64,000 nt of DNA from contig NZ_JARIDQ010000002.1 in the NCBI RefSeq assembly GCF_029256985.1, positions 13-64,012 on the forward strand, written 5' to 3'. The translations under genes and the position numbers were made by a program. Every line of letters begins with the position of its first letter. Position 1 is the first letter of the stretch. A model generated the notes under the pieces. That model was not told where the DNA came from and did not search any database. It saw only the letters and a program-made list of their open reading frames with translations. The DNA is from Otariodibacter sp. Lineage in GTDB: Bacteria; Pseudomonadota; Gammaproteobacteria; Enterobacterales; Pasteurellaceae. Below are positions 5,737 to 64,000 of the stretch, piece after piece.

Positions 5737-6003
5737 AAAGTTTCCTATAAAAATAAGAATAAATAAATTTCATGTTTTTTATTAAAATATGTATTGATAG
5801 TATCTAAAAAATATAAAAATGTGAATAGTTAATACCAATTAGAATTAAAAAAATTCACATTTCTAGAAATTTATAGAAAGATATCTGAATTAGATAAATT
5901 TATTGATTCTTTATTACAAAAAAATATAGAATGACTTACGTTATTTATCTAGTATTTTTCAGAAAGTTGTAATTCACATTTTCTTATTTTTATAAGGTAG
6001 TCA

Positions 6004-6366
6004 ATGAAACCCTCCAATAAAGCAAGTTTTCAAAGAGTGATTAATGCAACCAAATATTCATTAAAAGGGTTAAAAAGTGCGTATATTAATGAAGCTGCGC
6101 TTCGTCAAGAAATCTGGCTTTCTTGTATAACAATTCCTTTAGGTTTTTTTCTAGGACAAACACCCGTTGAAAAAATTTTATTGGTAGGAAGCATATTACT
6201 TATTCTTATTACTGAATTATTAAATAGTGCGATTGAATCTGTTGTTGACCGTATTGGATCAGAATTTCATGAATTGTCAGGTAGAGCTAAAGATATTGCC
6301 TCTGCAGCCGTTTTTATGAGTATACTTCTGGCTGGAATGACATGGTTACTTATTTGCTTTTTCTAA
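6004..6366 (+). CDS. dgkA: Diacylglycerol kinase
   Basis: 120 aa with 3 TM. The segment ELLNSAIESVVDRIGSEFHELSGRAKD matches the conserved prokaryotic DgkA core. Confidence 0.92.
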   Translation: MKPSNKASFQRVINATKYSLKGLKSAYINEAALRQEIWLSCITIPLGFFLGQTPVEKILLVGSILLILITELLNSAIESVVDRIGSEFHELSGRAKDIASAAVFMSILLAGMTWLLICFF

Positions 6367-6384
6367 ACTAATAAAAATTACGTA

Positions 6385-8949
6385 ATGGGCATTTTCAATC
6401 TAAAAGAACAATTTGATAAATTCAATACTGAGCAAAGCATAAAATTTAATTGTATTAATGTTGTAACACTGTTGTATCAACGTAGTAATTTTTATGATCA
6501 ATTACTCCAAACATTATGGGAACATTTTGAATTAGATAGATACTCTGATCTAGCACTTATTGCTGTTGGTGGGTACGGTCGTAGAGAAATGTTTCCTCTC
6601 TCTGATCTTGATATTCTAATTATCAGTGAAAATCCTATCAATGAAACAACACAAGATAAGATCACTCAATTATTTAATATTTTATGGGATTGCAATTTAC
6701 AGTTAGGCTCCGCAATTCGAACTATCCAACAATGTATTGATATTGGACTTAATGAACTATCCGTTGCAACAAATATGTTGGAAAGCCGGTTTTTAATAGG
6801 CAATAAATTTTTGTGGGAACAATTAATTTCTCATTTATATCAAGATAATTTTTGGCCAATTTCATCTTTTTTTCAAGCAAAAATAGAAGAAAAACAAACG
6901 CGCTACGAAAGATATCATAATACAAGCTATAACCTTGAACCTGATTTGAAGCATAGTCCAGGAGGATTACGTGATCTACATTTACTTTTATGGATTATGC
7001 TTAGACAATATGGCGTTCAATCTTTAGATTCACTTTATGCTAAAGGGATCCTTTTCAAAAAAGAGTATGAAGAACTAAAAGAGGCACAGAAAATCCTTTT
7101 TCAAATGCGGTTTGGATTACACCTTCAACTGAAACGCTATGACAATCGTTTACGCTTTGATCGCCAGCTAGCATTGAGTGAACAGTTAGGTTATCAAGGG
7201 GAAGGAAATCATCCCGTAGAAATGATGATGAAAGCCTACTTCCAAGCAACTCAATCTATTTCTCAACTAAGCCAACTAATTCTTGATAGCTTTAAACAAG
7301 ATGTACTAAATCCTTTGCAAAATAAAGGAACAAAGTTACCGCTTGATGAGTTATTTTTTTTACGAGATAACCAAATCAGTTGTTATAGTCCAAGAAATTT
7401 ATCCCAATCCCCTGAAAAAATATTAGATCTTTTCTTTTATTTAACTGAGTATCCTGAAGCAATAATCGCAATAACCACACTACGTCATCTTCGTTTGACG
7501 ATAAAAAATATTACGATACCTTTAAGTGAAAATCCAAATGCCCGAAAACGTTTTATTCAGCTTTTTTCACAACCTAATTGTATCCAACGAGCAATTCTGC
7601 CTATGCACCGTTTTGGAGTACTTTCAATCTATCTGCCACAATGGAAAAATATCCGAGGGTTAATGCAATTTGATATGTTTCACCTTTATACGGTTGATGA
7701 ACATATCGTGCGAGTGATGCAAAAATTAGAGAGTTTTCTCGACCAAACCAATAGTGAGAAACATCCCCTATGTTGTGAAATCTTTCCCATACTCGAAAAA
7801 CGTCCTCTACTCTATCTAGCTGCTCTATTTCATGATATAGCAAAAGGACGAAATGGCGATCATTCAAAATTGGGGGCAGAAGATATGCGTCAATTTGCCC
7901 ACCTACACGGATTTAGCGAAGAGGATAGCGATTATATGGCGTGGTTAGTCGAACAACATCTATCTATGTCTATTACTGCACAACGACGCGATATTCACGA
8001 TCCCTCTGTTGTAAAAAATTTTGCAAATGTCGTTAATAATCCGACCGCGTTATCTGCATTAACTTGCTTAACAGTAGCCGATATTTGTGCAACTAATGAA
8101 ACATTATGGAATGATTGGAAACGTTCCTTAATTCATAAACTCTATCAATTTACGCTTGAACAACTCAATTTAGGTAAGGAAGAATCTATCGATTACCACC
8201 AATTAGCACTTAATAATCGTGATGAAACCTTGCAACAACTCAATTTATCTGAAGTTCAACAACAAAAACTTTGTGAATTTTGGGATAGCTGTCCTGAAAG
8301 TTACTTTGTGCGTCATAATCCAACCCAGCTTATCTGGCATGCTTCATCATTTATTAAAAGCACGACCCTCCCCTTAGTACTAGTCAGTAGTCAATACGCA
8401 CGTAGTGCCACTGAAATTTTTATCTACACACAAGAACAACCGTATATTTTTGCTCGAGTTGCACAAATGATGAGCCAGAAAAAAGTGACAGTGCATGATG
8501 CCCAAATTCTGACAAGTGATAATGGATTTATCTTAGATAGCTTTATTGTTTCCGAACAAAATGGTAAAACACTCAATAAAGATCGACTTAAACAGATTCA
8601 ACTTGCATTGACTAAGACCTTACAAGATACTGAATCTAAACCTATAAAAATCGTCAAAAAACCAATAAAGCATAGATCATTTAAACGTAAAACTATGATT
8701 CGTTTTTTAGATGAATTAAATCTAGAACATACTGCTTTTGAATTATTCACATTAGATAGAGAAGGATTATTGACTCGAATAGGCTATATTTTTCAACAAT
8801 TACAATTAAACTTAATTAACGCCAAAATTACGACGATAGGTGAACAGGTAGAAGATTTTTTTGTGGTGACAACATCTCAAAATCAAGCACTATCAGAAGT
8901 ACAAAAAGAGAAACTGAAACAAACTATAATTACTGAATTAACAAATTAA
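6385..8949 (+). CDS. glnD: [Protein-PII] uridylyltransferase / uridylyl-removing enzyme
   Basis: 854 aa. It has the nucleotidyltransferase motif GGYGRREMFPLSDLD, an HD domain (LAALFHDIAKGR) and two C-terminal ACT-like segments. Confidence 0.93.
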   Translation: MGIFNLKEQFDKFNTEQSIKFNCINVVTLLYQRSNFYDQLLQTLWEHFELDRYSDLALIAVGGYGRREMFPLSDLDILIISENPINETTQDKITQLFNILWDCNLQLGSAIRTIQQCIDIGLNELSVATNMLESRFLIGNKFLWEQLISHLYQDNFWPISSFFQAKIEEKQTRYERYHNTSYNLEPDLKHSPGGLRDLHLLLWIMLRQYGVQSLDSLYAKGILFKKEYEELKEAQKILFQMRFGLHLQLKRYDNRLRFDRQLALSEQLGYQGEGNHPVEMMMKAYFQATQSISQLSQLILDSFKQDVLNPLQNKGTKLPLDELFFLRDNQISCYSPRNLSQSPEKILDLFFYLTEYPEAIIAITTLRHLRLTIKNITIPLSENPNARKRFIQLFSQPNCIQRAILPMHRFGVLSIYLPQWKNIRGLMQFDMFHLYTVDEHIVRVMQKLESFLDQTNSEKHPLCCEIFPILEKRPLLYLAALFHDIAKGRNGDHSKLGAEDMRQFAHLHGFSEEDSDYMAWLVEQHLSMSITAQRRDIHDPSVVKNFANVVNNPTALSALTCLTVADICATNETLWNDWKRSLIHKLYQFTLEQLNLGKEESIDYHQLALNNRDETLQQLNLSEVQQQKLCEFWDSCPESYFVRHNPTQLIWHASSFIKSTTLPLVLVSSQYARSATEIFIYTQEQPYIFARVAQMMSQKKVTVHDAQILTSDNGFILDSFIVSEQNGKTLNKDRLKQIQLALTKTLQDTESKPIKIVKKPIKHRSFKRKTMIRFLDELNLEHTAFELFTLDREGLLTRIGYIFQQLQLNLINAKITTIGEQVEDFFVVTTSQNQALSEVQKEKLKQTIITELTN

Positions 8950-8977
8950 TATTTTAAAACCTCAAAAAGGGATAATT

Positions 8978-9610
8978 ATGAAAACTATTTCAAAAATTTT
9001 ATCATTGACTGGATTACTAGCCTTAGTTGGCTGTAATTCTATTTATGATGCGCCTTCTAAAGTAGATAAATCAATAATAACGATTCCACATTCAGATCCC
9101 CAATGGCAACAACATCTAGCACAATTACAAAAAATTAGGTCTTACTCTGCAAGTGGTCAATTTGGTTATCTTTCACCTGAGGATCGATTTTCCTCACACT
9201 TTGATTGGCAATATCATTCTCCATATCAGTTTCATCTAGTGATGTCCTCAAATCTTTCAAGTAAATCACTCAAATTACAACGTACCCAACAAGGTATGAC
9301 GGTTTCTGACAGTGAAGGTAATTCACGTACCGAAACCAATATTACTAAGTTAATGCAAGAAATGATCGGAGTATCATTTCCTATCGACCATTTTGCTTAT
9401 TGGGTAAAAGGTCAACCTGAAGAAAATATGCCTTATACGGTTAATGAAAAACGCCAACTAGCTCAATTTAATTACCCTATTAATGGTGTAACGTGGAATG
9501 TGAATTTTGTTGAATATCATGAAGATCGTATTCCAAACTTACCCAAACTAATTTCACTAGATAATGGGACACAAACTTTAAAAATTCGTATTGATGAATG
9601 GACATATTGA
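8978..9610 (+). CDS. lolB: Outer-membrane lipoprotein LolB
   Basis: 210 aa with a signal peptide and lipobox LVGC. It sits immediately upstream of ispE-prs, as in E. coli. Confidence 0.85.
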
Positions 9611-9611
9611 T

Positions 9612-10460
9612 ATGAGCAATATTCTTACTTTTCCTAGCCCAGCTAAACTCAATTTATTCTTATATATTACAGGCAAGCGGTCAGATGGCTATCATGAATT
9701 GCAAACCTTGTTTCAGTTTTTAGACTTTGGGGATGATATCCATTTTGAAATTACTCAAGGATCGCAAATTGAACTACTCGATCAACTAGATTCTGTACCT
9801 GTTGAGCAAAATCTAATTTATAAAGCTGCAAAATTATTACAACAGCACACCGCTTGTTCCCTTGGTGCAAAAATTGGAATAACCAAAAGGCTCCCTATGG
9901 GAGGAGGCGTTGGAGGAGGGTCATCTAACGCAGCAACAACCCTCGTTGTACTTAATCAACTATGGAATACACAACTCTCTCTAGAAACTTTAGCAGAACT
10001 TGGATTAACATTAGGTGCTGATGTACCTATTTTTGTGAGAGGTCATGCAGCTTTTGCTGAAGGAGTGGGCGAAAAATTAACATTTTGCAATCCACCAGAA
10101 AAGTGGTTCGTAGTGCTTAAACCTAATGTGTCTATTTCAACTGCACTAATTTTTAATCAACCCTCACTACCTCGCAATACGCCCAAAAGAAAATTGCAAG
10201 AACTTTTATCTATAAATTGGAAAAACGATTGCGAAAAAGTTGTCCGAGATCAGTATTCAGAGGTTGAAGATCTTATCGCTTGGTTGGTACAATATGCACC
10301 GTTTCGGTTAACTGGTACAGGTGCTTGTATTTTTGCTGAGTTTGAAAGTGAAGCTAAAGCTCGTCAAGTTTTTGCTAACAAGCCGAATGATATACAAGGC
10401 TTTGTGGCAAAAGGACAAAATATTTCACCTTTACACCAAAAACTAAACTTATTTTCCTAA
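9612..10460 (+). CDS. ispE: 4-diphosphocytidyl-2-C-methyl-D-erythritol kinase
   Basis: GHMP-kinase motif [14 protein letters not shown] is present. I moved the start to ATG 9612 ([17 protein letters not shown]), 1 nt after the lolB stop; the listed start at 9591 would overlap lolB. Confidence 0.92.
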
Positions 10461-10481
10461 TTTAACCCAGAGGTTCCCCCA

Positions 10482-11432
10482 ATGCCTGATATTAAACTCT
10501 TCGCAGGAAATGCTACACCAGAATTAGCAAAACGAATTGCTGAACGTCTTTATACTAACCTCAGCGATGCAACAGTTGGTCGTTTTAGTGATGGTGAGGT
10601 TCAAGTACAAATTAATGAAAATGTACGTGGCGGAGATATTTTTATTGTGCAATCAACTTGTGCACCCACTAATGATAATCTAATGGAATTGATCGTAATG
10701 GTCGATGCGTTAAGACGTGCATCTGCAGGCCGTATTACCGCTGTTATTCCATATTTTGGCTACGCTCGACAAGACCGTCGTGTTCGCTCTGCCCGTGTTC
10801 CAATTACAGCAAAAGTTGTAGCTGATTTTCTTTCTAGTGTGGGAGTTGACCGTGTATTGACTTGTGATCTTCACGCAGAACAAATTCAAGGTTTCTTTGA
10901 TGTGCCAGTAGATAACGTATTTGGTTCTCCAATTTTACTTGATGATATCTTAAAGAAATCTGACTTAGTCAACCCAATCGTTGTATCTCCAGATATCGGT
11001 GGAGTGGTTCGTGCTCGTGCAGTAGCAAAACTACTTAATGACACAGAGATGGCAATTATCGATAAACGTCGCCCTAGAGCTAACGTTTCCCAAGTTATGC
11101 ACATCATTGGTGATGTAGCAGAACGTGATTGTATCTTAGTGGATGATATGATCGATACTGGTGGAACATTAGTAAAAGCTGCTGAAGCATTAAAAGAAAG
11201 AGGTGCTCGTCGAGTGTTTGCTTATGCAACACACCCTGTATTCTCCGGTACAGCAGCGAAAAACTTAGCTAATACAGCATTAGATGAAGTGGTGGTAACC
11301 GATTCTATCCCACTTTCAGCGGAAATTAAGGCATTAAATAAAGTCCGAGTCTTGACAGTTTCAGGAATGCTTGCAGAGGCTATTCGCCGAATTAGTAATG
11401 AAGAGTCAATCTCGGCGATGTTTAATCATTAA
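10482..11432 (+). CDS. prs: Ribose-phosphate pyrophosphokinase
   Basis: 316 aa. It carries [17 protein letters not shown] and the PRPP-binding loop [10 protein letters not shown]. Confidence 0.97.
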
Positions 11433-56151: not shown

Positions 56152-56556
56152 CTAAATTTCGAAATCTTCCAAAGACTTACCAGCATCTAGTGCTTTTTGT
56201 AATGCCTTCGGTGTTCTTCCTTGACCTGTCCATGTTTTTTCAATCCCATTATCCATAAATTTATATTTAGGAGGGCGAGGAGAACGAGATTCACGCTTTT
56301 TACCTGATAAAGAACCTCCCAATAATAATACGAGTTCTTCAGCAGAAATACCATCTTGTGCTAATAATTCTTTATATTTATTTAAGCTCTCCTGACGTTT
56401 TGCTTCTTCTGCTTCTAATACTCTAATTTCTTCGCGCTTCTCCTCTACAACAGTATTTACCTTTTCGAGCAATAATTCTAACTGTTCCAATGAAGACTCT
56501 CTTGCAAGTGCTCTCAAGCTACGAATATTTGATAATGTTTTGATTAAATCTGACAT
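56152..56556 (-). CDS. hns: H-NS family nucleoid-associated protein
   Basis: 134 aa with an N-terminal coiled coil and the C-terminal DNA-binding motif TWTGQGRTPKA. Confidence 0.92.
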   Translation of the reverse strand: MSDLIKTLSNIRSLRALARESSLEQLELLLEKVNTVVEEKREEIRVLEAEEAKRQESLNKYKELLAQDGISAEELVLLLGGSLSGKKRESRSPRPPKYKFMDNGIEKTWTGQGRTPKALQKALDAGKSLEDFEI

Positions 56557-59299: not shown

Positions 59300-60508
59300 T
59301 TAACTAATCACAGATGGAAGTAATCCACTTTGAATTAAGAATGGCACACACATAATAAGTATACCTAAAACTAGAGCTAAGACTAAAGCAACATTTCCAC
59401 CTAAAACACGATATTCTAAATCTGAGTACTTTTTGCGTAACATCCATGCCATACCAACAGGTAATACAAGCCCATAGAATGTAAACATTTGTCCTGCATA
59501 ACTTAAAACACCGAGAAAATCACGGTAGAATAATGCAAATATTAAAACAGGTACGAAAGTCAGTAAGCTTAGAGAAATACGATTCGCTTTAATATTAACA
59601 CGCTTAAGTAAATCATCTAAACAATCAACAAGTGCTAAAGCAACACCTAAATAGGATGTAATTAATGCTAAAGAAGAAAATATACGCACAGATTCACTGA
59701 TAAAACTACTTCCTGTCGCTTGTAATGTTGCCTCAATTAAGCCATTTAATGTCGGATCTTTACTAATAATTTCTACAAATTGTAGTTGTGAAAATACCCC
59801 ATGTGTAGCCATTTGCCATAAGATGTAAGCAATAAGAGGGATTGCGGTACCGCCAATAATAGCAATACGTAAGCGGCGAATATCCCCATCTAAGTAGTTA
59901 TTAATACTAGGGATAACCACATGGAAGCCAAATGATGTAAAGAATACAGGGCTTGCAGAAATGATCACTAAGTATTTTAACGGCATTGCACCTAGATTTT
60001 CTACTGTTGCTAAAGGCAACATCATGTAAAGAACAAAAAAGAATGCAACTAACTTTATTATAAAAAGAACTCGAGTAAAAGCATCAACAGCTTGAGTACC
60101 AATTGTTACGGCAATTGCAAAAAATACAATAAATACTGTAATAGAAACAGTCTCTGCGTTAGCACCTACAAATTCTAGGAATGGAGCAAGTAGATTACCA
60201 CCGCCCAACGCATATACAGTTAAAATTGCATACATAAATATAACAAGTGATAAGGTAGCAAGTACTCGTCCTGCCATCCCAAAATGCTGTTCAGCAAGGG
60301 TCGCAATTCCAGCATCTTTACGTTCTGCTTTTTGATAAACCTCAACAAATAATAAAGCACTATATGAAAGAAGTAACCATAATATAAAGAGTAAGAGCAT
60401 TGTATAACTAAAGCCCATTTCTGCAGAAGTAAGTGGCATAGCTAACATTCCAGCACCAATTGTTGTCCCAGCTACAATTAAAGCACTTCCTAAGGTTTTA
60501 TTTTTCAT
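59300..60508 (-). CDS. tyrP: Aromatic amino acid (tyrosine-specific type) transporter, HAAAP family
   Basis: [26 protein letters not shown] aligns with the E. coli TyrP N-terminus ([26 protein letters not shown]). I set the start at ATG 60508, and tandem TyrR boxes lie upstream. Substrate (Tyr versus Trp) is inferred, not proven. Confidence 0.85.
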   Translation of the reverse strand: [402 protein letters not shown]

Positions 60509-60564
60509 ATGATTACCAAACAAAATAAAAAGATAGAATTATTCTAGCAAACAATAAATTATTT

Positions 60565-60601
60565 TGTAAACATTTTATTACATAGTAATTTGTTTTTTAC
60601 A
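60565..60601. promoter_or_regulatory. Two adjacent TyrR boxes upstream of tyrP
   Basis: Box 1 is TGTAAA-catttt-ATTACA (60565-60582, 11/12 to TGTAAA-N6-TTTACA). Box 2 is AGTAAT-ttgttt-TTTACA (60584-60601, 10/12). They are separated by 1 bp and lie 57-93 bp upstream of the tyrP ATG. Confidence 0.7.
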
Positions 60602-60741
60602 TTTAAATATAAATATAAATGTAATACCTTTGTGTGAAAATTGATATAAATTTGGGATATTAAATAGGCTTTTTATTTAAATTTTGGTAAAGTGGATATA
60701 TCAAAAATATATAGTTAGACTGATTATAGTGAGAAAATGAA

Positions 60742-62130
60742 ATGTACTCATCAAATTTTAATAACCTACTTCTAAATGTCGATAGTTATAAAGCATCCCA
60801 TTGGTTACAATATCCCCCTAATACAGAATATATTTCTTACTATATTGAAGCACGAAAAAGTAGTTTCGATCTCGTTATGTTTGGCTTACAAGCCTTTATC
60901 AAAGAGTATTTACTTACTCCTATTACTCAAGCAGATATTGAACAAGCAGAAATTACACTTACAGCACATGGATTGCCTTTTCATAAAGAAGGTTGGCAAC
61001 GATTACTTAAAAAATATAATGGTTTATTGCCAATTAAAATAGATGCAGTTCCTGAAGGTACAGTATTACCTGTGGGGAATGTTGTATGTCAAATTGTAAA
61101 TACGGATCCTGAATTTTATTGGCTTTCTGGTTATTTAGAAACAGCTCTACTGCGTGCAGTTTGGTATCCTTCGACTGTGGCAAGTATTTCTTATTTCTGT
61201 AAACAAAAAATTAAACAAGCTTTATTAAAGTCTTCAGATACGCTTGATGGTTTAGATTTTCAACTTCATGATTTTGGTGCAAGAGGGGCATCTAGCTTAG
61301 AAACAGTTGCATTAGGTGGTTTGGCTCATTTAGTCAATTTTAGAGGAACGGATAGTGTGTCAGCATTATTGGCTGCTAAACGTTGGTATAACGTGACTAA
61401 AATGCCAGCGTTTTCTATCCCTGCGGCAGAACATAGTACTATCACAGCTTGGGGAAAAGATAATGAGGCCATGGCTTACGATAATATGATTACACAATTT
61501 GCTGGCAAAGATAAAATCTATGCGGTTGTATCAGATAGCTATAATTTATGGAATGCATTGGAAAATATTTGGGGAGAACAACTTCATCAAAAAATTAAAG
61601 AAAAAGGTGGTAGATTAGTTATTCGCCCTGACAGTGGTGATCCGATTGAAATTGTATGTAAAACCCTTGAGATCTTAGCAGAAAAATTTGGGACTACTAT
61701 AAACAGTAAAGGTTATAAGGTCTTGCCTGATTACATTCGTATTATTCAAGGTGATGGAATCAATATGACTTCTCTCGATCCTATTTTAGATGCAATTATG
61801 CAAAAAGGGTTTAGTGCCGAAAATGTCAATTTTGGTATGGGTGGAGGTCTATTACAACAAGTGAATCGAGATACAATGAGCTGGGCAATGAAAGCTAGTG
61901 CAATTTGTATCAATGGCGAATGGAAAGATATTTTCAAAGCTCCTATCACCAGCCAAATGAAACGTTCTAAAAAAGGTATTCAAGCCTTAATTCACGAAAA
62001 TAACCAATGGCAAACCATTCGACAAGATGAACTTGCTGATCGTGAAAATCAATTAAAAACAGTTTTCCTAAATGGTGAGTTATTAGTGGATGAGCATTTA
62101 GATAGTATTCGTAAAAAGACGTTAGGCTAA
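60742..62130 (+). CDS. nadV: Nicotinamide phosphoribosyltransferase
   Basis: 462-aa type II PRTase. It starts NLLLNVDSYKASHW and carries HDFGARG, FSIPAAEHST and IRPDSGDP motifs typical of NadV/NAMPT. Confidence 0.92.
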   Translation: MYSSNFNNLLLNVDSYKASHWLQYPPNTEYISYYIEARKSSFDLVMFGLQAFIKEYLLTPITQADIEQAEITLTAHGLPFHKEGWQRLLKKYNGLLPIKIDAVPEGTVLPVGNVVCQIVNTDPEFYWLSGYLETALLRAVWYPSTVASISYFCKQKIKQALLKSSDTLDGLDFQLHDFGARGASSLETVALGGLAHLVNFRGTDSVSALLAAKRWYNVTKMPAFSIPAAEHSTITAWGKDNEAMAYDNMITQFAGKDKIYAVVSDSYNLWNALENIWGEQLHQKIKEKGGRLVIRPDSGDPIEIVCKTLEILAEKFGTTINSKGYKVLPDYIRIIQGDGINMTSLDPILDAIMQKGFSAENVNFGMGGGLLQQVNRDTMSWAMKASAICINGEWKDIFKAPITSQMKRSKKGIQALIHENNQWQTIRQDELADRENQLKTVFLNGELLVDEHLDSIRKKTLG

Positions 62131-62151
62131 ACTTGATATTTGGAGAGTTAT

Positions 62152-64000
62152 ATGAATAAAAATCAATTGAATAAATTGTTCAAAGAAGGAAAAAAATTAT
62201 TTGATGATGGGAAGTATGATGATTCAATTGAAAAATTAAATCTGTTTTTAAAGCAATTCAATGAGATTGATTCTGAGGAAATAGCAAGTAAAGCAAGTTT
62301 TATTCAACAAAAAATCAATGCGCAATTTTGGTTAGGACGTTGTTATTTAGAGAAAGGGAATAAAGAACCAGATAGTCAGAAAGCACAGAGCCACTATGAT
62401 ACTTCAATAACCCATCATAAACAGCAATTAGTTTTAGCAAAAGTCTTAATCGATTATAAGGAAGAAAAAGGACTGGAAGAGCAAATCTATGCAGAATCTT
62501 GGTTAGGTGGTTGTTATTTAGAGAAAGGAAATAAAGAACCAGATAACCAGAAAGCACAGAGCTACTATGATACTTCAATAACGCATAATAAACAGCGATT
62601 AGATTTAGCAAAAAACTTAACTAGGTATAATGAAGAAAAAGGACTAGAAAAGCAACTTAATGCAAAATCTTTGTTAGGACACTGTTATTTAGAGAAAGGG
62701 AATAAAGAGCCAGATAATCAAAAAGCACAAAGCTACTATGATATATCAATAATTCATTATGAACAACAATTGGCTTTGGCAAAAACATTGACCAATTATG
62801 GTGAAGAGAACGCTTTGAAAGAGAAAGCTTTGAAAAAGCAACTCAATGCACAATTTAGGTTAGGACATTGTTATTTAGCAAAAGGAGAAAATCAAAAAAA
62901 CAGCAATAATTTTGATAAGTCAATAAAATATTTTAATTTTACTTTAAAATTAATTAAAGAAGTTGGAGGGGATTATTTAAAAAAATATAATTATGTGAAA
63001 TATTTTCAACTACAGAGTTATTGGAGGAAATTATCCCTAATAAACAATAGATTATTACTAGCTAAATTTTATATAAAAAAAACACAGCTAGTCTTTTCAA
63101 TGATTGATGGTATCAATAATATAAATTTAAAAAAATCCATATCAAGAATTCAATCTCTTTTATTAATATCTCCTATTGAAATAGATAATATAGCTTTTTC
63201 TCATTATACGACTCCTAGTGTTTGTGAACTATTACTAGGTATAAAACGGGTTTCGAAAGATATAGGTTCAACAGCGATGAGAATGAATAGCTCAAGCTAT
63301 ATGAATGATCCTTTAGAGGGTAAAAGTTTATTAGAATTTTTAAATCAACAAGAATTACAGATTGAAAATAAAATAGATGTAAAAGCACATAATGCATTTT
63401 TTACTTGTTTTTCTAATCGAGTTAATGATCTTAATCAGTTTAGATTATATGGAAAAGTTGATAATGTTGAAGCTTCAGGATGTTGTTTAGTCTTCTCTAA
63501 AGATAAATTAGTTAAATATGAGTATACTAATCCTATAAAGTTAGAAATTAATCAAGATAATACTATAAAGCAGGATAATCAGGATAATATAGATAAAAAA
63601 TCTAATAAGTTACCTCTATATCAAGTAGCTTATATCTTTTATAAAGATGAATATATTAAGAGGGATGAATATGATATTTTCAAAGATAAAAATAAAAAGT
63701 TTGGTATTTACTTAAAACCTGTTAGCAGTAATACTATTTGGGAAGAGTTTAGAAGAGAAAATCTAGCAACAGAATTAGATAACCTACGAAAAATATTAGA
63801 TGAAGAAAATCTATCTGAAGGAGAAAAGTTAAATGCATTAGAATATATTCGGTACTTGTTTAAAGATTATGCATTTAGAGATGAGGAAGAATTTCGCTTA
63901 TTAAGAATTGAGCCAATAGATTCAGAGGATGTCAAATATTGTTTAGATACTAATTCACTCTATTTAGAATATGGTTTTATAGGTGATATGGTTGATGAAG
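62152..64000 (+). CDS. Sel1/TPR-like repeat protein with a C-terminal DUF2971-like domain; 3' end lies beyond the window
   Basis: This ORF is not in the supplied track because it has no stop before base 64000. ATG 62152 lies 7 nt after GGAGAG and 21 nt after the nadV stop. My translation is open for 616 codons. Residues 55-260 hold four 57-aa repeats with core (W/L)LG.CYLEKGNKEPD.QKAQSYYD.SI. Residues 330-616 carry FSHYTT, YMNDPLEG, FFTCFS, DLNQFRLYG, GCCLVFS and FRDEEEFRLL. Confidence 0.8.
   Translation, partial: MNKNQLNKLFKEGKKLFDDGKYDDSIEKLNLFLKQFNEIDSEEIASKASFIQQKINAQFWLGRCYLEKGNKEPDSQKAQSHYDTSITHHKQQLVLAKVLIDYKEEKGLEEQIYAESWLGGCYLEKGNKEPDNQKAQSYYDTSITHNKQRLDLAKNLTRYNEEKGLEKQLNAKSLLGHCYLEKGNKEPDNQKAQSYYDISIIHYEQQLALAKTLTNYGEENALKEKALKKQLNAQFRLGHCYLAKGENQKNSNNFDKSIKYFNFTLKLIKEVGGDYLKKYNYVKYFQLQSYWRKLSLINNRLLLAKFYIKKTQLVFSMIDGINNINLKKSISRIQSLLLISPIEIDNIAFSHYTTPSVCELLLGIKRVSKDIGSTAMRMNSSSYMNDPLEGKSLLEFLNQQELQIENKIDVKAHNAFFTCFSNRVNDLNQFRLYGKVDNVEASGCCLVFSKDKLVKYEYTNPIKLEINQDNTIKQDNQDNIDKKSNKLPLYQVAYIFYKDEYIKRDEYDIFKDKNKKFGIYLKPVSSNTIWEEFRRENLATELDNLRKILDEENLSEGEKLNALEYIRYLFKDYAFRDEEEFRLLRIEPIDSEDVKYCLDTNSLYLEYGFIGDMVDE
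62329..62900 (+). repeat. Coding tandem repeat, 171-bp unit (3 full units plus a partial fourth)
   Basis: Units start at 62329, 62500 and 62671, and at 62857 after a 15-bp in-frame microduplication (GCTTTGAAAGAGAAA / GCTTTGAAAAAGCAA). The first roughly 90 bp of each unit are nearly identical by eye. Confidence 0.9.

What the first reader, a model, noticed from the sequence alone, without database searches (positions are those of the whole stretch)
62152..64000. Orphan AT-rich ORF fusing a Sel1/TPR-like repeat array to a DUF2971-like domain, tightly linked to nadV (best candidate for an undescribed system)
Seen in sequence: this ORF of more than 616 codons was missed by the supplied track because it runs off the window. 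It has a good SD and starts 21 nt after the nadV stop, so it is probably co-transcribed with nadV. It is visibly more AT-rich than its neighbours. The N-terminal half consists of four 57-aa repeats with a Sel1/TPR-like core (LG.CYLEKGNKEPD.QKAQSYYD), the sort of module used for protein-protein sensing. The C-terminal half carries, in order, HYT, NDP.EG, CFS, (F/W)R.YG, G.CLVF and E.E.R motifs. This is the signature I recall for Pfam DUF2971 (accession PF11185 from memory; verify), a family with no experimentally established function.

Inference: a repeat sensor fused to an uncharacterised, probably enzymatic domain is the architecture of many single-protein immunity or abortive-infection modules and of some host-interaction effectors. 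The link to an NAD-salvage gene is intriguing because NAD depletion and replenishment are central to phage-host conflict, but that link is speculative. The 3' end and any downstream partner genes are outside the window.
Basis: partly seen in the sequence, partly recalled or inferred. Interest (0 to 1): 0.75.

Follow-up and report, generated by a model that had tools for sequence, protein, structure and literature searches.

The report
Repeat-sensor protein with DUF2971 (ART-like) domain
The open reading frame after nadV is a real, intact gene for a cytoplasmic protein that joins a variable helical-repeat array to a divergent DUF2971 domain (a family now predicted to be ADP-ribosyltransferases, with one proven anti-phage member); it belongs to a large, horizontally spread, uncharacterised family, and its position next to nadV is not conserved.

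Summary
An ATG at 62152, 21 nt after the nadV stop and behind a GGAG Shine-Dalgarno, opens a frame with no stop for 616 codons. The full protein is 658 aa (Otariodibacter sp.). It has four 57-62-aa Sel1/TPR-like repeats and a 333-aa C-terminal domain carrying the listed motifs.

Direct Pfam scoring for DUF2971 is below threshold (15.5 vs 22 bits). Homology is nevertheless secure: profile-profile probability 99.7% (E 6e-26) against DUF2971-annotated proteins.

The gene is not an orphan. Close homologues (about 50% identity) occur in Neisseria, Pasteurellaceae, Eikenella, Ottowia, Capnocytophaga and Bergeyella. TPR/Sel1+DUF2971 fusions are widespread.

DUF2971 is no longer function-less. It is predicted to be an HYE-type ADP-ribosyltransferase, and the single-gene system Aristaios is a DUF2971 protein. 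A confident AlphaFold model (pLDDT 84) gave no significant Foldseek hit, so the ART fold is unconfirmed here.

nadV is absent from all 70 related loci, though one Weissella locus has pncB-nadE upstream. The gene is solitary, with no conserved partner.

Best reading: a stand-alone sensor-effector conflict protein. This is a new variant of a known kind, of moderate interest.

The parts
60742..62130 (+). nadV (nicotinamide phosphoribosyltransferase), the immediately upstream co-oriented gene; context, probably the same transcript
   Evidence: NCBIfam NF006629 E 3.5e-198; Pfam NAPRTase + NAMPT_N. No terminator-like site between it and the ORF.
62141..62146 (+). Shine-Dalgarno (TGGAGA) 5 nt upstream of the ATG
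   Evidence: Sequence read directly.
62152..64000 (+). ORF for the repeat + DUF2971-like protein, codons 1-616 of 658 (runs off the window)
   Evidence: No stop in 616 codons, P about 4e-28 by chance. 100% identical to P0001 residues 1-616.
62152..62295 (+). N-terminal capping TPR-like helices (aa 1-48)
   Evidence: TPR_16 and YbgF-like weak hits over aa 8-92. Homologues give TPR_1/TPR_2 hits at aa 4-31.
62296..62994 (+). Four tandem Sel1/TPR-like repeats: R1 62296-62466, R2 62467-62637, R3 62638-62808, R4 62809-62994 (R4 divergent, with a 15-bp internal duplication at 62804-62835)
   Evidence: TRF period 171 bp, 2.8 copies, 84%. Cores at aa 61/118/175/237. Family-wide period is 53-57 aa with about 3 to 10 or more copies.
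62995..63126 (+). Linker (aa 282-325) between the repeat array and the C-terminal domain
   Evidence: Lies outside both the repeat register and the conserved domain alignment.
63127..64000 (+). C-terminal DUF2971-superfamily (ART-like) domain, aa 326-616 of 326-658
   Evidence: hhalign vs DUF2971-annotated clade 99.7%, E 6.3e-26, 269 columns. AlphaFold pLDDT 84.3 / pTM 0.85. tblastn to Streptococcus plasmid 'DUF2971 domain-containing protein' E 1e-5.
63202..63210 (+). H351-Y-T353, candidate ART motif I (HxT) on the first beta strand; H invariant
   Evidence: Invariant in the 27- and 63-sequence alignments down to 17% identity. Strand 24-28 of the model.
63304..63321 (+). N385-D-P-L-E389-G390, invariant NDPxEG loop
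   Evidence: Invariant columns N60 D61 P62 E64 G65.
63436..63453 (+). QFRLY433-G434 (equivalent to W..YG of classic DUF2971), candidate motif II tyrosine; start of the PF11185 model match
   Evidence: Y108/G109 invariant. The PF11185 match begins here.
63883..63897 (+). E578-E-E580-F-R582, candidate catalytic ExE motif at the start of a beta strand
   Evidence: E253, E255, R257 invariant. Strand 255-263 of the model follows a long helical insert, as described for DUF2971 in PMC12522546.

Best explanation
The gene encodes a cytoplasmic, stand-alone two-module protein.

Module 1 is an N-terminal solenoid of Sel1/TPR-like repeats. The number of 53-57-aa units varies between homologues. I infer that it acts as the ligand or protein sensor and keeps the enzyme inactive.

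Module 2 is a C-terminal domain that is a divergent member of the DUF2971 superfamily. It retains an invariant H...Y...ExE set. Following the published assignment of DUF2971, I infer that it uses NAD+ to ADP-ribosylate a macromolecule, either nucleic acid (as DarT does) or an essential protein.

The most likely biological role is a single-gene conflict or abortive-infection-type module. On this reading, the repeats recognise an invader-derived cue, the transferase is released, and replication or transcription is shut down.

The gene is an accessory, horizontally exchanged element that lands next to housekeeping operons. Here it landed after nadV, with which it is probably co-transcribed. That adjacency is incidental rather than a conserved functional coupling.

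Shown: the gene is intact; the repeat architecture; DUF2971 homology; the invariant residues; solitary and variable genomic context; patchy cross-phylum distribution.

Inferred: the ART chemistry, the sensor role of the repeats, and the defence function.
For: - The gene is real and intact.
- There is no signal peptide or TM segment: maximum 19-aa hydropathy is 0.93.
- Homology to DUF2971 rests on four results. hhalign A1 vs A5 gives 99.7%, E 6e-26. Of the relatives found by the domain profile, 57 of 80 hit PF11185. Of domain-only sequences, 26 of 27 hit PF11185, best 5.6e-10. tblastn reaches annotated DUF2971 proteins on Streptococcus plasmids.
- Eighteen residues are invariant over 63 sequences down to 17% identity. 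They include H351, Y433, E578, E580 and R582.
- In a confident model (pLDDT 84.3), H lies on the first strand and ExE at the start of a strand after a large helical insert. This matches the layout described for DUF2971 as an HYE-clade ART related to DarT and AbiGi (PMC12522546).
- Aristaios is a 316-aa DUF2971 protein. It is a single-gene Abi-like anti-phage system that blocks phage transcription (PMC11381338, PMC13064643).
- The sister clade carries genuine TPRs, including the conflict-system 'TPR-S' sensor family PF20308 in 16 of 80 members.
- The repeat array varies from about 3 to 10 or more units.
- The gene is solitary, sits at different chromosomal sites in each lineage, and is sometimes multi-copy.
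- HGT footprints: a Neisseria-type polA fragment carried into Ottowia, and the ORF's low GC.
- Some distant members lie beside a prophage lysis cassette, an IS element, or MGE regulators.
Against: - Foldseek found no significant structural match: 0 hits at E<=1e-3 in PDB or BFVD. ART-fold proteins (Tpt1, pertussis toxin S1, DarTG, ART-PolyVal) appear only among non-significant hits.
- Profile searches against PDB sequences gave only coiled-coil noise.
- hhalign against E. coli KptA gave nothing.
- PADLOC gives no hit for the protein.
- Neighbours in the close family are housekeeping genes, not defence islands.
- Among 85 flanking genes of distant members, only about 3-4 are credible defence components.
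- The family is almost absent from phage and viral collections, so there is no arms-race signature from that side.
- No experiment exists for any repeat-fused member.
Confidence: 0.45

Rival explanations
1. The DUF2971 domain is not an ADP-ribosyltransferase. It may perform different chemistry (for example a hydrolase or nuclease-like activity), or act as a non-catalytic binding module. In either case the protein would still be a repeat-guided effector of unknown activity.
Against: Two independent groups reached the ART assignment (PMC12522546, PMC11381338). The invariant HxT, Y and ExE residues sit at the secondary-structure positions expected for ART motifs I-III. ART-fold proteins are over-represented among the weak Foldseek hits: Tpt1 at rank 1, pertussis toxin three times, and DarTG.
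Confidence: 0.2
2. It is an endogenous NAD-linked regulator. On this view, an ART modifies a host protein or nucleic acid in response to metabolic or stress cues sensed by the repeats, and is functionally coupled to NAD salvage. That would explain its placement after nadV here and after pncB-nadE in Weissella.
For: In the window, a 21-nt gap with no terminator lies after nadV. A second, independent locus has pncB-nadE followed by a TPR-DUF2971 gene, co-oriented and about 80 nt downstream. A rough chance expectation for two or more such cases is about 0.01-0.05 (my estimate). ARTs consume NAD+ and release nicotinamide, which is the NadV substrate (established biochemistry). Many copies sit at the ends of housekeeping operons such as polA, rpoBC, glnS and suf.
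Against: nadV, pncB and nadE are absent within +/-10 kb in the other 69 loci and in six further contexts. The patchy, multi-copy, cross-phylum distribution at variable insertion sites is not what a core regulator shows.
Confidence: 0.12
3. It is a host- or competitor-directed toxin or effector. Sel1-repeat proteins and ART toxins are common virulence and host-interaction factors, and the close family is confined to bacteria living on animal oral or respiratory mucosa.
For: The close family is found only in Neisseria, Eikenella, Conchiformibius, Ottowia, Pelistega, Pasteurellaceae, Capnocytophaga and Bergeyella. The neighbouring clade is found in oral Streptococcus and Granulicatella. About 18% of DUF2971 proteins are predicted to be effectors (PMC12522546).
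Against: There is no signal peptide or TM segment. No secretion-system or immunity gene is linked, and no neighbour is conserved at all. Wider family members occur in free-living soil and marine bacteria. The shared niche is equally well explained by HGT within one community.
Confidence: 0.1
4. It is a decaying or selfish remnant with no current function in this strain.
For: The ORF has atypical low GC. Split or frameshifted copies exist in Capnocytophaga cynodegmi and Conchiformibius.
Against: The frame is intact over 658 aa. All 18 family-invariant residues are retained. It has a good SD and operon-like placement. Conservation of the domain across genera is strong, at about 50% identity.
Confidence: 0.03

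Closest known systems
Aristaios (Lactococcus plasmid pUCCL641_199; single-gene Abi-like anti-phage system; PMC11381338, PMC13064643)
   Same: It has a DUF2971-superfamily domain as the presumed effector. It is a single gene with no partner, and it is mobile and accessory. Its predicted fold is ART.
   Different: Aristaios is 316 aa, essentially the domain alone, and passes PF11185. The window protein is 658 aa, has a four-unit Sel1/TPR-like array, and has a divergent domain that fails the PF11185 threshold. tblastn of the window domain against the plasmid collection returned no Lactococcus plasmid. Anti-phage activity of the window protein is untested.
Pfam DUF2971 (PF11185), including Legionella lpg1268, predicted HYE-clade ART related to DarT, AbiGi and Tox-ART-HYD1 (PMC12522546)
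   Same: The motif series matches: HxT, NDPxEG, [SC]F[ST], W/F..YG, G.C.v.F, K..F..ExExR. The inserts fall at the same places. The profile-profile match is 99.7%.
   Different: The window clade replaces lPMW.QYG with LNQFRLYG and has an extra insert of about 90 aa. As a result the 89-position Pfam model scores only 15.5 bits.
TPR+DUF2971 'tetratricopeptide repeat proteins' of Pasteurella multocida, Moraxella, Acinetobacter, Cardiobacterium and Neisseria arctica (uncharacterised sister clade)
   Same: The two-module architecture and C-terminal placement are the same. The domains are 24-29% identical with all invariant residues kept. These genes are likewise solitary, next to housekeeping genes.
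   Different: The sister clade uses canonical 34-aa TPRs (TPR_1/2/12, TPR-S) rather than 53-57-aa Sel1-like units. Several of its members pass PF11185.
DarT of DarTG toxin-antitoxin / anti-phage systems
   Same: The proposed chemistry (NAD+-dependent ADP-ribosylation, possibly of DNA) and the proposed outcome (growth arrest on infection) are the same.
   Different: No DarG-like macrodomain antitoxin or any conserved neighbour is present. There is no Pfam DarT hit. Foldseek to DarTG 7omu gives only E 7.6, TM 0.19. Control is presumably by the fused repeats rather than by an antitoxin.
Sel1-repeat (SLR) proteins such as Legionella LpnE/EnhC and Helicobacter Hcp
   Same: The repeat core (LG.CY..G......A...Y) resembles the Sel1 consensus. 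NCBI names the homologues 'sel1 repeat family protein'.
   Different: Those proteins are secreted or periplasmic and consist of repeats only. This protein has no signal peptide, its unit is 53-57 aa rather than about 36-44 aa, its Sel1 score is sub-threshold (26.1 vs 30.7 bits), and it carries an enzymatic-looking domain.

Membership tests
Pfam DUF2971 (PF11185) | Score at or above the Pfam gathering threshold (22 bits) | tested here: not met
   No hit on the whole protein at E<=1. The C-terminal part scores 15.3-15.5 bits, E 0.045-0.053. Nine of 12 close homologues give the same weak hit.
Pfam DUF2971 (PF11185) | Demonstrable homology to bona fide members over the whole domain | tested here: met
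   hhalign A1 vs A5 gives 99.7%, E 6.3e-26, 269 columns. Intermediate clades hit PF11185 (57 of 80, best 3.9e-7; 26 of 27, best 5.6e-10). tblastn reaches annotated DUF2971 proteins at E 1e-5.
Pfam DUF2971 (PF11185) | Conserved motif series (HxT, NDPxEG, W/F..YG, G.C..F, K...F..ExExR) | tested here: met
   Eighteen invariant columns across 63 sequences, all present in the window protein.
ADP-ribosyltransferase superfamily (HYE clade) | ART split beta-sheet fold with an NAD+ cleft | tested here: inconclusive
ADP-ribosyltransferase superfamily (HYE clade) | Catalytic motifs I-III ([H/R]x[T/D]; Y or STS; [Q/E]xE) on strands beta1, beta2 and beta5 | tested here: inconclusive
   H351-Y-T353 lies on the first strand, Y433 is invariant, and E578-x-E580 lies at the start of a strand after a helical insert. 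This is consistent with PMC12522546. The mapping is by analogy, not by superposition.
ADP-ribosyltransferase superfamily (HYE clade) | NAD+-dependent ADP-ribosyl transfer activity | not testable with these tools
   This needs biochemistry.
Aristaios-type single-gene Abi system | Confers phage resistance as a single gene | not testable with these tools
   Only the genomic correlate could be tested. The gene is solitary with no conserved partner. PADLOC 2023 has no model for it and gives no hit.
Aristaios-type single-gene Abi system | Domain-only architecture (about 316 aa, no repeats) | tested here: not met
   The window protein is 658 aa with four N-terminal repeats.
DarTG toxin-antitoxin | Adjacent DarG (macrodomain) antitoxin and a DarT (PF14487) domain | tested here: not met
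   No conserved neighbour in 45 close loci. No DarT hit at E<=10.
Sel1 repeat (PF08238) / TPR | Repeat score at or above the Pfam gathering threshold | tested here: not met
   For the window protein: Sel1 26.1 vs 30.7 bits, and TPR families 14-16 bits vs 25-33. Homologues with more repeats pass TPR_6, ANAPC3 and WSLR, so the repeat type is Sel1/TPR-like by family context.
Conserved nadV-linked operon | nadV (or another NAD-salvage gene) adjacent in related genomes | tested here: not met
   tblastn with nadV gave 0 hits in 70 loci. pncB-nadE are adjacent only in L063. No NAD genes in six further contexts.

The most novel reading that the evidence does not exclude
The two independent placements directly downstream of NAD-salvage genes (nadV here, pncB-nadE in Weissella) are not chance. 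On this reading, some repeat-DUF2971 proteins are wired to the cell's NAD supply. One possibility is that expression from the salvage operon guarantees substrate for an NAD-consuming immune effector. Another is that the protein senses or regulates NAD homeostasis during phage attack. Either would be a new link between NAD salvage and ART-based immunity.
Probability: 0.07. Interest if true: 0.7.

Novelty: new variant of a known kind. Interest (0 to 1): 0.4.

Why it matters
If the proposed mechanism holds, this would be a single-polypeptide immune sensor-effector. A variable-number helical-repeat array would gate an ADP-ribosyltransferase without any antitoxin. That arrangement differs from both DarTG and domain-only Aristaios.

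The family is common in human and animal oral and respiratory commensals and in relatives of pathogens (Neisseria, Haemophilus, Aggregatibacter, Pasteurella). It has crossed phylum boundaries, so it could influence phage susceptibility and gene flow in those communities.

It also gives a practical annotation lesson. The clade is missed by PF11185 and is currently labelled only 'sel1/TPR repeat protein'.

Tried and rejected
- AlphaFold with the shallow 12-sequence alignment gave pLDDT 40.5 and was discarded.
- Profile searches of the domain against PDB sequences returned nothing (A1) or coiled-coil noise from the helical insert (A6).
- Foldseek against PDB and BFVD gave no significant hit.
- hhalign of the domain profile against E. 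coli KptA gave probability 0.1%.
- PADLOC on the protein gave 0 hits.
- I tried to recover the sequence beyond 64000. The look-up of encoding contigs with P0001 and with the window's nadV both returned 'not on record'. The source genome was not among the genome-contig hits. The downstream neighbours in Otariodibacter therefore remain unknown.
- nadV co-occurrence was rejected as a conserved feature.
- Guilt by association with defence genes was inconclusive, because most PADLOC hits among the 85 neighbours were generic HTH regulators.
- Phage carriage was rejected: there was no hit in 50,697 phage genomes, and only 2-3 distant relatives in IMG/VR.
- Secretion was considered and rejected on the absence of a signal peptide or TM segment.
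- A TA-type partner was considered and rejected for lack of any conserved neighbour.
Full report
**1. The observation**

Reading 60000-64000 and translating 62152-64000 shows an ATG at 62152. It is preceded by TGGAGA (62141-62146) and lies exactly 21 nt after the TAA of the upstream gene. The first in-frame upstream stop is at 62134. The frame has no stop for 616 codons. Given the region's own base composition, that has a probability of about 4e-28.

The upstream gene (60742-62130) is nadV: NCBIfam NF006629 at E 3.5e-198, with Pfam NAPRTase and NAMPT_N. No terminator-like hairpin and no strong promoter match lie at the junction, so co-transcription is likely though not shown.

The ORF has 27.3% GC. 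The window as a whole has 35.0% (SD 3.5% in 900-bp windows) and nadV has 35.1%.

The protein is 100% identical over 616 residues to a 658-aa NCBI protein from Otariodibacter sp., a member of the Pasteurellaceae. Only 42 residues are missing from the window.

Repeat cores lie at residues 61, 118, 175 and 237. That makes three 57-aa units and a fourth, divergent unit of 62 aa, which contains a 15-bp tandem duplication. At the DNA level TRF reports a 171-bp period, 2.8 copies and 84% matches.

The sequence-level observation is therefore confirmed.

**2. What the two halves are**

*N-terminal half.* Pfam gives only sub-threshold repeat hits: Sel1 at 26.1 bits against a cutoff of 30.7, and TPR families at 14-16 bits. 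Homologues with more repeat units pass TPR_6, ANAPC3 and WSLR, and NCBI names them 'sel1 repeat family protein'.

Across 120 homologues the unit is 53-57 aa. The number of recognisable cores ranges from 3 to 10. Repeats are 71-88% identical at the DNA level. This is a variable-number helical-repeat array.

There is no signal peptide or transmembrane segment. The maximum 19-aa Kyte-Doolittle value is 0.93, and the N-terminus is strongly hydrophilic.

*C-terminal half.* Direct hmmscan does not place it in DUF2971. The whole protein gives no hit at E<=1. The isolated domain scores 15.3-15.5 bits against a gathering threshold of 22.

Homology is nevertheless secure, on several lines of evidence:
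- A profile of 12 close homologues (A1) recovered 1105 representative clusters at E<=1e-3 from 1.84 billion proteins. The domain is almost always C-terminal.
- Of 80 of these relatives (E about 1e-22 to 1e-35), 57 hit PF11185 (best 3.9e-7) and about 58 carry genuine N-terminal TPRs. Sixteen of them carry the 'TPR-S' sensor family PF20308.
- A third, more distant clade is annotated by NCBI as 'DUF2971 domain-containing protein' (Granulicatella, Streptococcus). It includes Sel1+PF11185 and TPR+PF11185 proteins.
- hhalign between the window's clade and that clade gives 99.7% probability, E 6.3e-26, over 269 columns spanning the whole domain.
- Of 27 domain-only sequences from the three clades, 26 hit PF11185, and no other family recurs.
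- tblastn of the window domain finds annotated DUF2971 proteins on Streptococcus megaplasmids at E 1e-5.

In alignments of 27 and 63 sequences, down to 17% identity, 18 positions are invariant. They are H351, R377, N385, D386, P387, E389, G390, L427, Y433, G434, G443, Y494, L569, K571, E578, E580, R582 and S651.

The window protein, however, belongs to a divergent clade that the Pfam model misses. In this clade LNQFRLYG replaces lPMWxQYG, and there is an additional insert of about 90 aa.

**3. What DUF2971 is thought to do**

The statement that the family has no established function is out of date.

A 2025 survey classifies DUF2971 as a novel HYE-clade ADP-ribosyltransferase family, similar to DarT, AbiGi and Tox-ART-HYD1. 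It describes a conserved tyrosine, an ExE motif, and large helical inserts between strands 1-2 and 4-5 (PMC12522546).

**4. Testing the ART fold here**

The first AlphaFold run, with 12 similar sequences, was unusable at pLDDT 40.5. I therefore spent the two remaining homologue searches collecting diverse sequences that the structure tool would accept. With these I built a 63-sequence alignment (A7). The second model is confident: pLDDT 84.3 and pTM 0.85.

Its secondary-structure order is as follows:
- H351 lies on the first strand.
- The NDPxEG motif lies in a loop.
- CFS lies on a central strand.
- QFRLY433 lies in a short helix before the GCCLVF strand.
- A long helical hairpin follows.
- E578-x-E580-x-R582 lies at the start of the next strand.

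This agrees with the published description of DUF2971.

Foldseek, however, found nothing significant: 0 hits at E<=1e-3 in PDB or BFVD. The best PDB hit is the ART-fold enzyme Tpt1 (7yw4) at E 0.72. Pertussis toxin S1 appears three times at E 4-7, DarTG (7omu) at E 7.6, and a phage ART-PolyVal protein at E 7. The recurrence of ART-fold proteins among the weak hits is suggestive, but it is not a test passed.

Profile searches against PDB sequences and hhalign against E. coli KptA gave nothing. I therefore treat ART chemistry as an inference from the literature plus the motif layout, at roughly 60% confidence.

**5. Distribution and context**

The gene is not an orphan. The first search returned more than 120 full-length homologues (37-42% identity overall, 45-54% in the domain) out of 2038 hits.

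In one-genome-per-species reference contigs, 45 loci carry close relatives. The hosts are:
- many Neisseria, including two or three copies in single genomes;
- Eikenella, Conchiformibius, Ottowia and Pelistega;
- the Pasteurellaceae Glaesserella australis, Haemophilus, Aggregatibacter and Volucribacter;
- the Bacteroidota Capnocytophaga cynodegmi and Bergeyella zoohelcum.

All are animal oral or respiratory commensals. This points to horizontal exchange within that niche.

There is a direct footprint of such exchange. In Neisseria and Eikenella the gene begins 46 nt after polA. In Ottowia massiliensis a 128-aa Neisseria-type polA 3' fragment lies immediately upstream of the gene.

Clustering of all flanking ORFs shows no conserved partner. 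The largest neighbour cluster, a DNA ligase, is present in only 15 of 45 loci and reflects one Neisseria insertion site. Each lineage has its own site, between housekeeping genes: glnS/maeB, an amino-acid ABC transporter, fbp, pmbA/argD, polA, and ligase/hpt/PTS.

In the window the upstream 12 kb is likewise housekeeping: purK, nanM, a TRAP transporter, rnhA, a formyltransferase, H-NS, an Na+/H+ antiporter, a Trp/Tyr permease and nadV.

Sister-clade contexts vary:
- P. multocida: housekeeping genes.
- Acinetobacter: the gene starts 93 nt after rpoC.
- Granulicatella: about 1.2 kb after a prophage holin-amidase cassette.
- Streptococcus: next to an IS transposase.
- Pyrinomonadaceae: in an MGE-like region with an ImmA/IrrE-type regulator and a P4 cII-like gene.
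- One unnamed metagenomic (JGI) contig: between suf genes and a two-component system.

A PADLOC scan of 85 genes flanking the distant members gave mostly generic HTH matches and about 3-4 credible defence components: mad3, mad8, AriA and an OLD-type ATPase. That is not decisive.

The family is essentially absent from phage genomes and from IMG/VR, where only 2-3 distant relatives were found.

**6. The nadV link**

tblastn with the window's NadV found no copy in any of the 70 loci within +/-10 kb. None of the six further contexts has an NAD gene. The adjacency is therefore not a conserved feature.

One exception is worth recording. In Weissella viridescens (L063), pncB and nadE are followed, co-oriented and about 80 nt downstream, by an 809-aa TPR+DUF2971-like gene. 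Two such cases in about 77 contexts is somewhat more than I would expect by chance. My rough estimate is P about 0.01-0.05, but this is a post-hoc count.

The common pattern may simply be insertion at the 3' ends of conserved operons, as also seen after polA, rpoC, glnS and suf. I keep functional coupling to NAD supply as a low-probability but interesting reading.

**7. Most likely mechanism**

Shown:
- The gene is intact and the protein is cytoplasmic.
- It has two modules: a repeat array and a DUF2971-superfamily domain.
- The domain has a strictly conserved polar constellation.
- The gene is solitary, mobile and patchily distributed.

Inferred:
- The domain is an NAD+-dependent ADP-ribosyltransferase.
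- The repeat array is the sensor or autoinhibitory module. A Sel1/TPR solenoid would bind a protein or peptide cue, and variation in copy number would tune specificity.
- Activation leads to ADP-ribosylation of nucleic acid or of an essential protein, and then to growth arrest. This would be an Aristaios-like abortive response with a built-in sensor instead of an antitoxin.

I put this at about 0.45. The rivals are:
- a non-ART activity of the domain (0.2);
- an endogenous NAD-linked regulatory role (0.12);
- a host- or competitor-directed effector (0.1);
- a functionless remnant (0.03).

**8. Novelty and verdict**

The kind of protein is known. It is DUF2971, a predicted ART, with one experimentally validated single-gene anti-phage member. 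Repeat+DUF2971 fusions are already visible in public annotation.

Three things are new here:
- a divergent clade that Pfam misses and that is annotated only as 'sel1/TPR repeat protein';
- an unusual 53-57-aa variable repeat unit;
- a striking spread across phyla among oral and respiratory commensals.

No member with a fused repeat array has been studied. I rate this as a new variant of a known kind, with interest 0.4.

Noticed in passing
L032 8499-8885 (Ottowia massiliensis), upstream of the homologue at 8930-11083: A 128-aa ORF that is a 3' fragment of a Neisseria-type polA lies directly upstream of the gene. In Neisseria and Eikenella the gene follows a full-length polA by 46 nt. This is a direct footprint of inter-genus transfer with a hitch-hiking polA piece.
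   Followed up: partly
L063 6001-10930 (Weissella viridescens): pncB (6001-7584), then nadE (7602-8426), then an 809-aa TPR+DUF2971-like ORF (8504-10930), all co-oriented. This is a second, independent case of an NAD-salvage gene immediately upstream of a family member.
   Followed up: partly
L072/L073 2423-6317 (Granulicatella adiacens): A DUF2971 gene lies about 1.2 kb downstream of a prophage holin + amidase lysis cassette. This is the typical position of prophage 'moron' or defence cargo.
   Followed up: no
L074 715-7004 (Acinetobacter): A TPR+DUF2971-like gene starts 93 nt after rpoC. Together with the polA, glnS, suf, nadV and nadE cases, this suggests preferential insertion at the 3' ends of conserved operons.
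   Followed up: no
L007 8652-10287 (Capnocytophaga cynodegmi); L038 4698-6619 (Conchiformibius): The homologue is split into two overlapping or adjacent ORFs (135+433 aa and 204+354 aa). These are frameshifted pseudogenes or assembly errors within the repeat region.
   Followed up: no
L039 11037-13066 (Pelistega suis), minus strand: The homologue is inserted in a rhamnose/LPS biosynthesis cluster, next to three unannotated ORFs that include a P-loop ATPase. This may be a small variable or defence islet.
   Followed up: no
window 62804-62835: A 15-bp tandem duplication (2.1 copies, 94%) adds EKALK to the fourth repeat. This explains its 62-aa rather than 57-aa spacing.
   Followed up: yes
window 56152-56556 (-): An H-NS family gene lies 6 kb upstream. 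The 27% GC ORF would be a plausible target of H-NS xenogeneic silencing (speculative).
   Followed up: no
window 62315-62611 (-): A 98-aa TTG-initiated ORF on the opposite strand lies inside the repeat array. It is almost certainly a by-product of the repetitive sequence, not a gene.
   Followed up: no
window 60524-60741: A very AT-rich (about 26% GC) 218-bp intergenic region lies between the divergently transcribed Trp/Tyr permease and nadV. It presumably holds both promoters. The only strong sigma-70-like match on the + strand nearby lies inside nadV (60993-61020).
   Followed up: no
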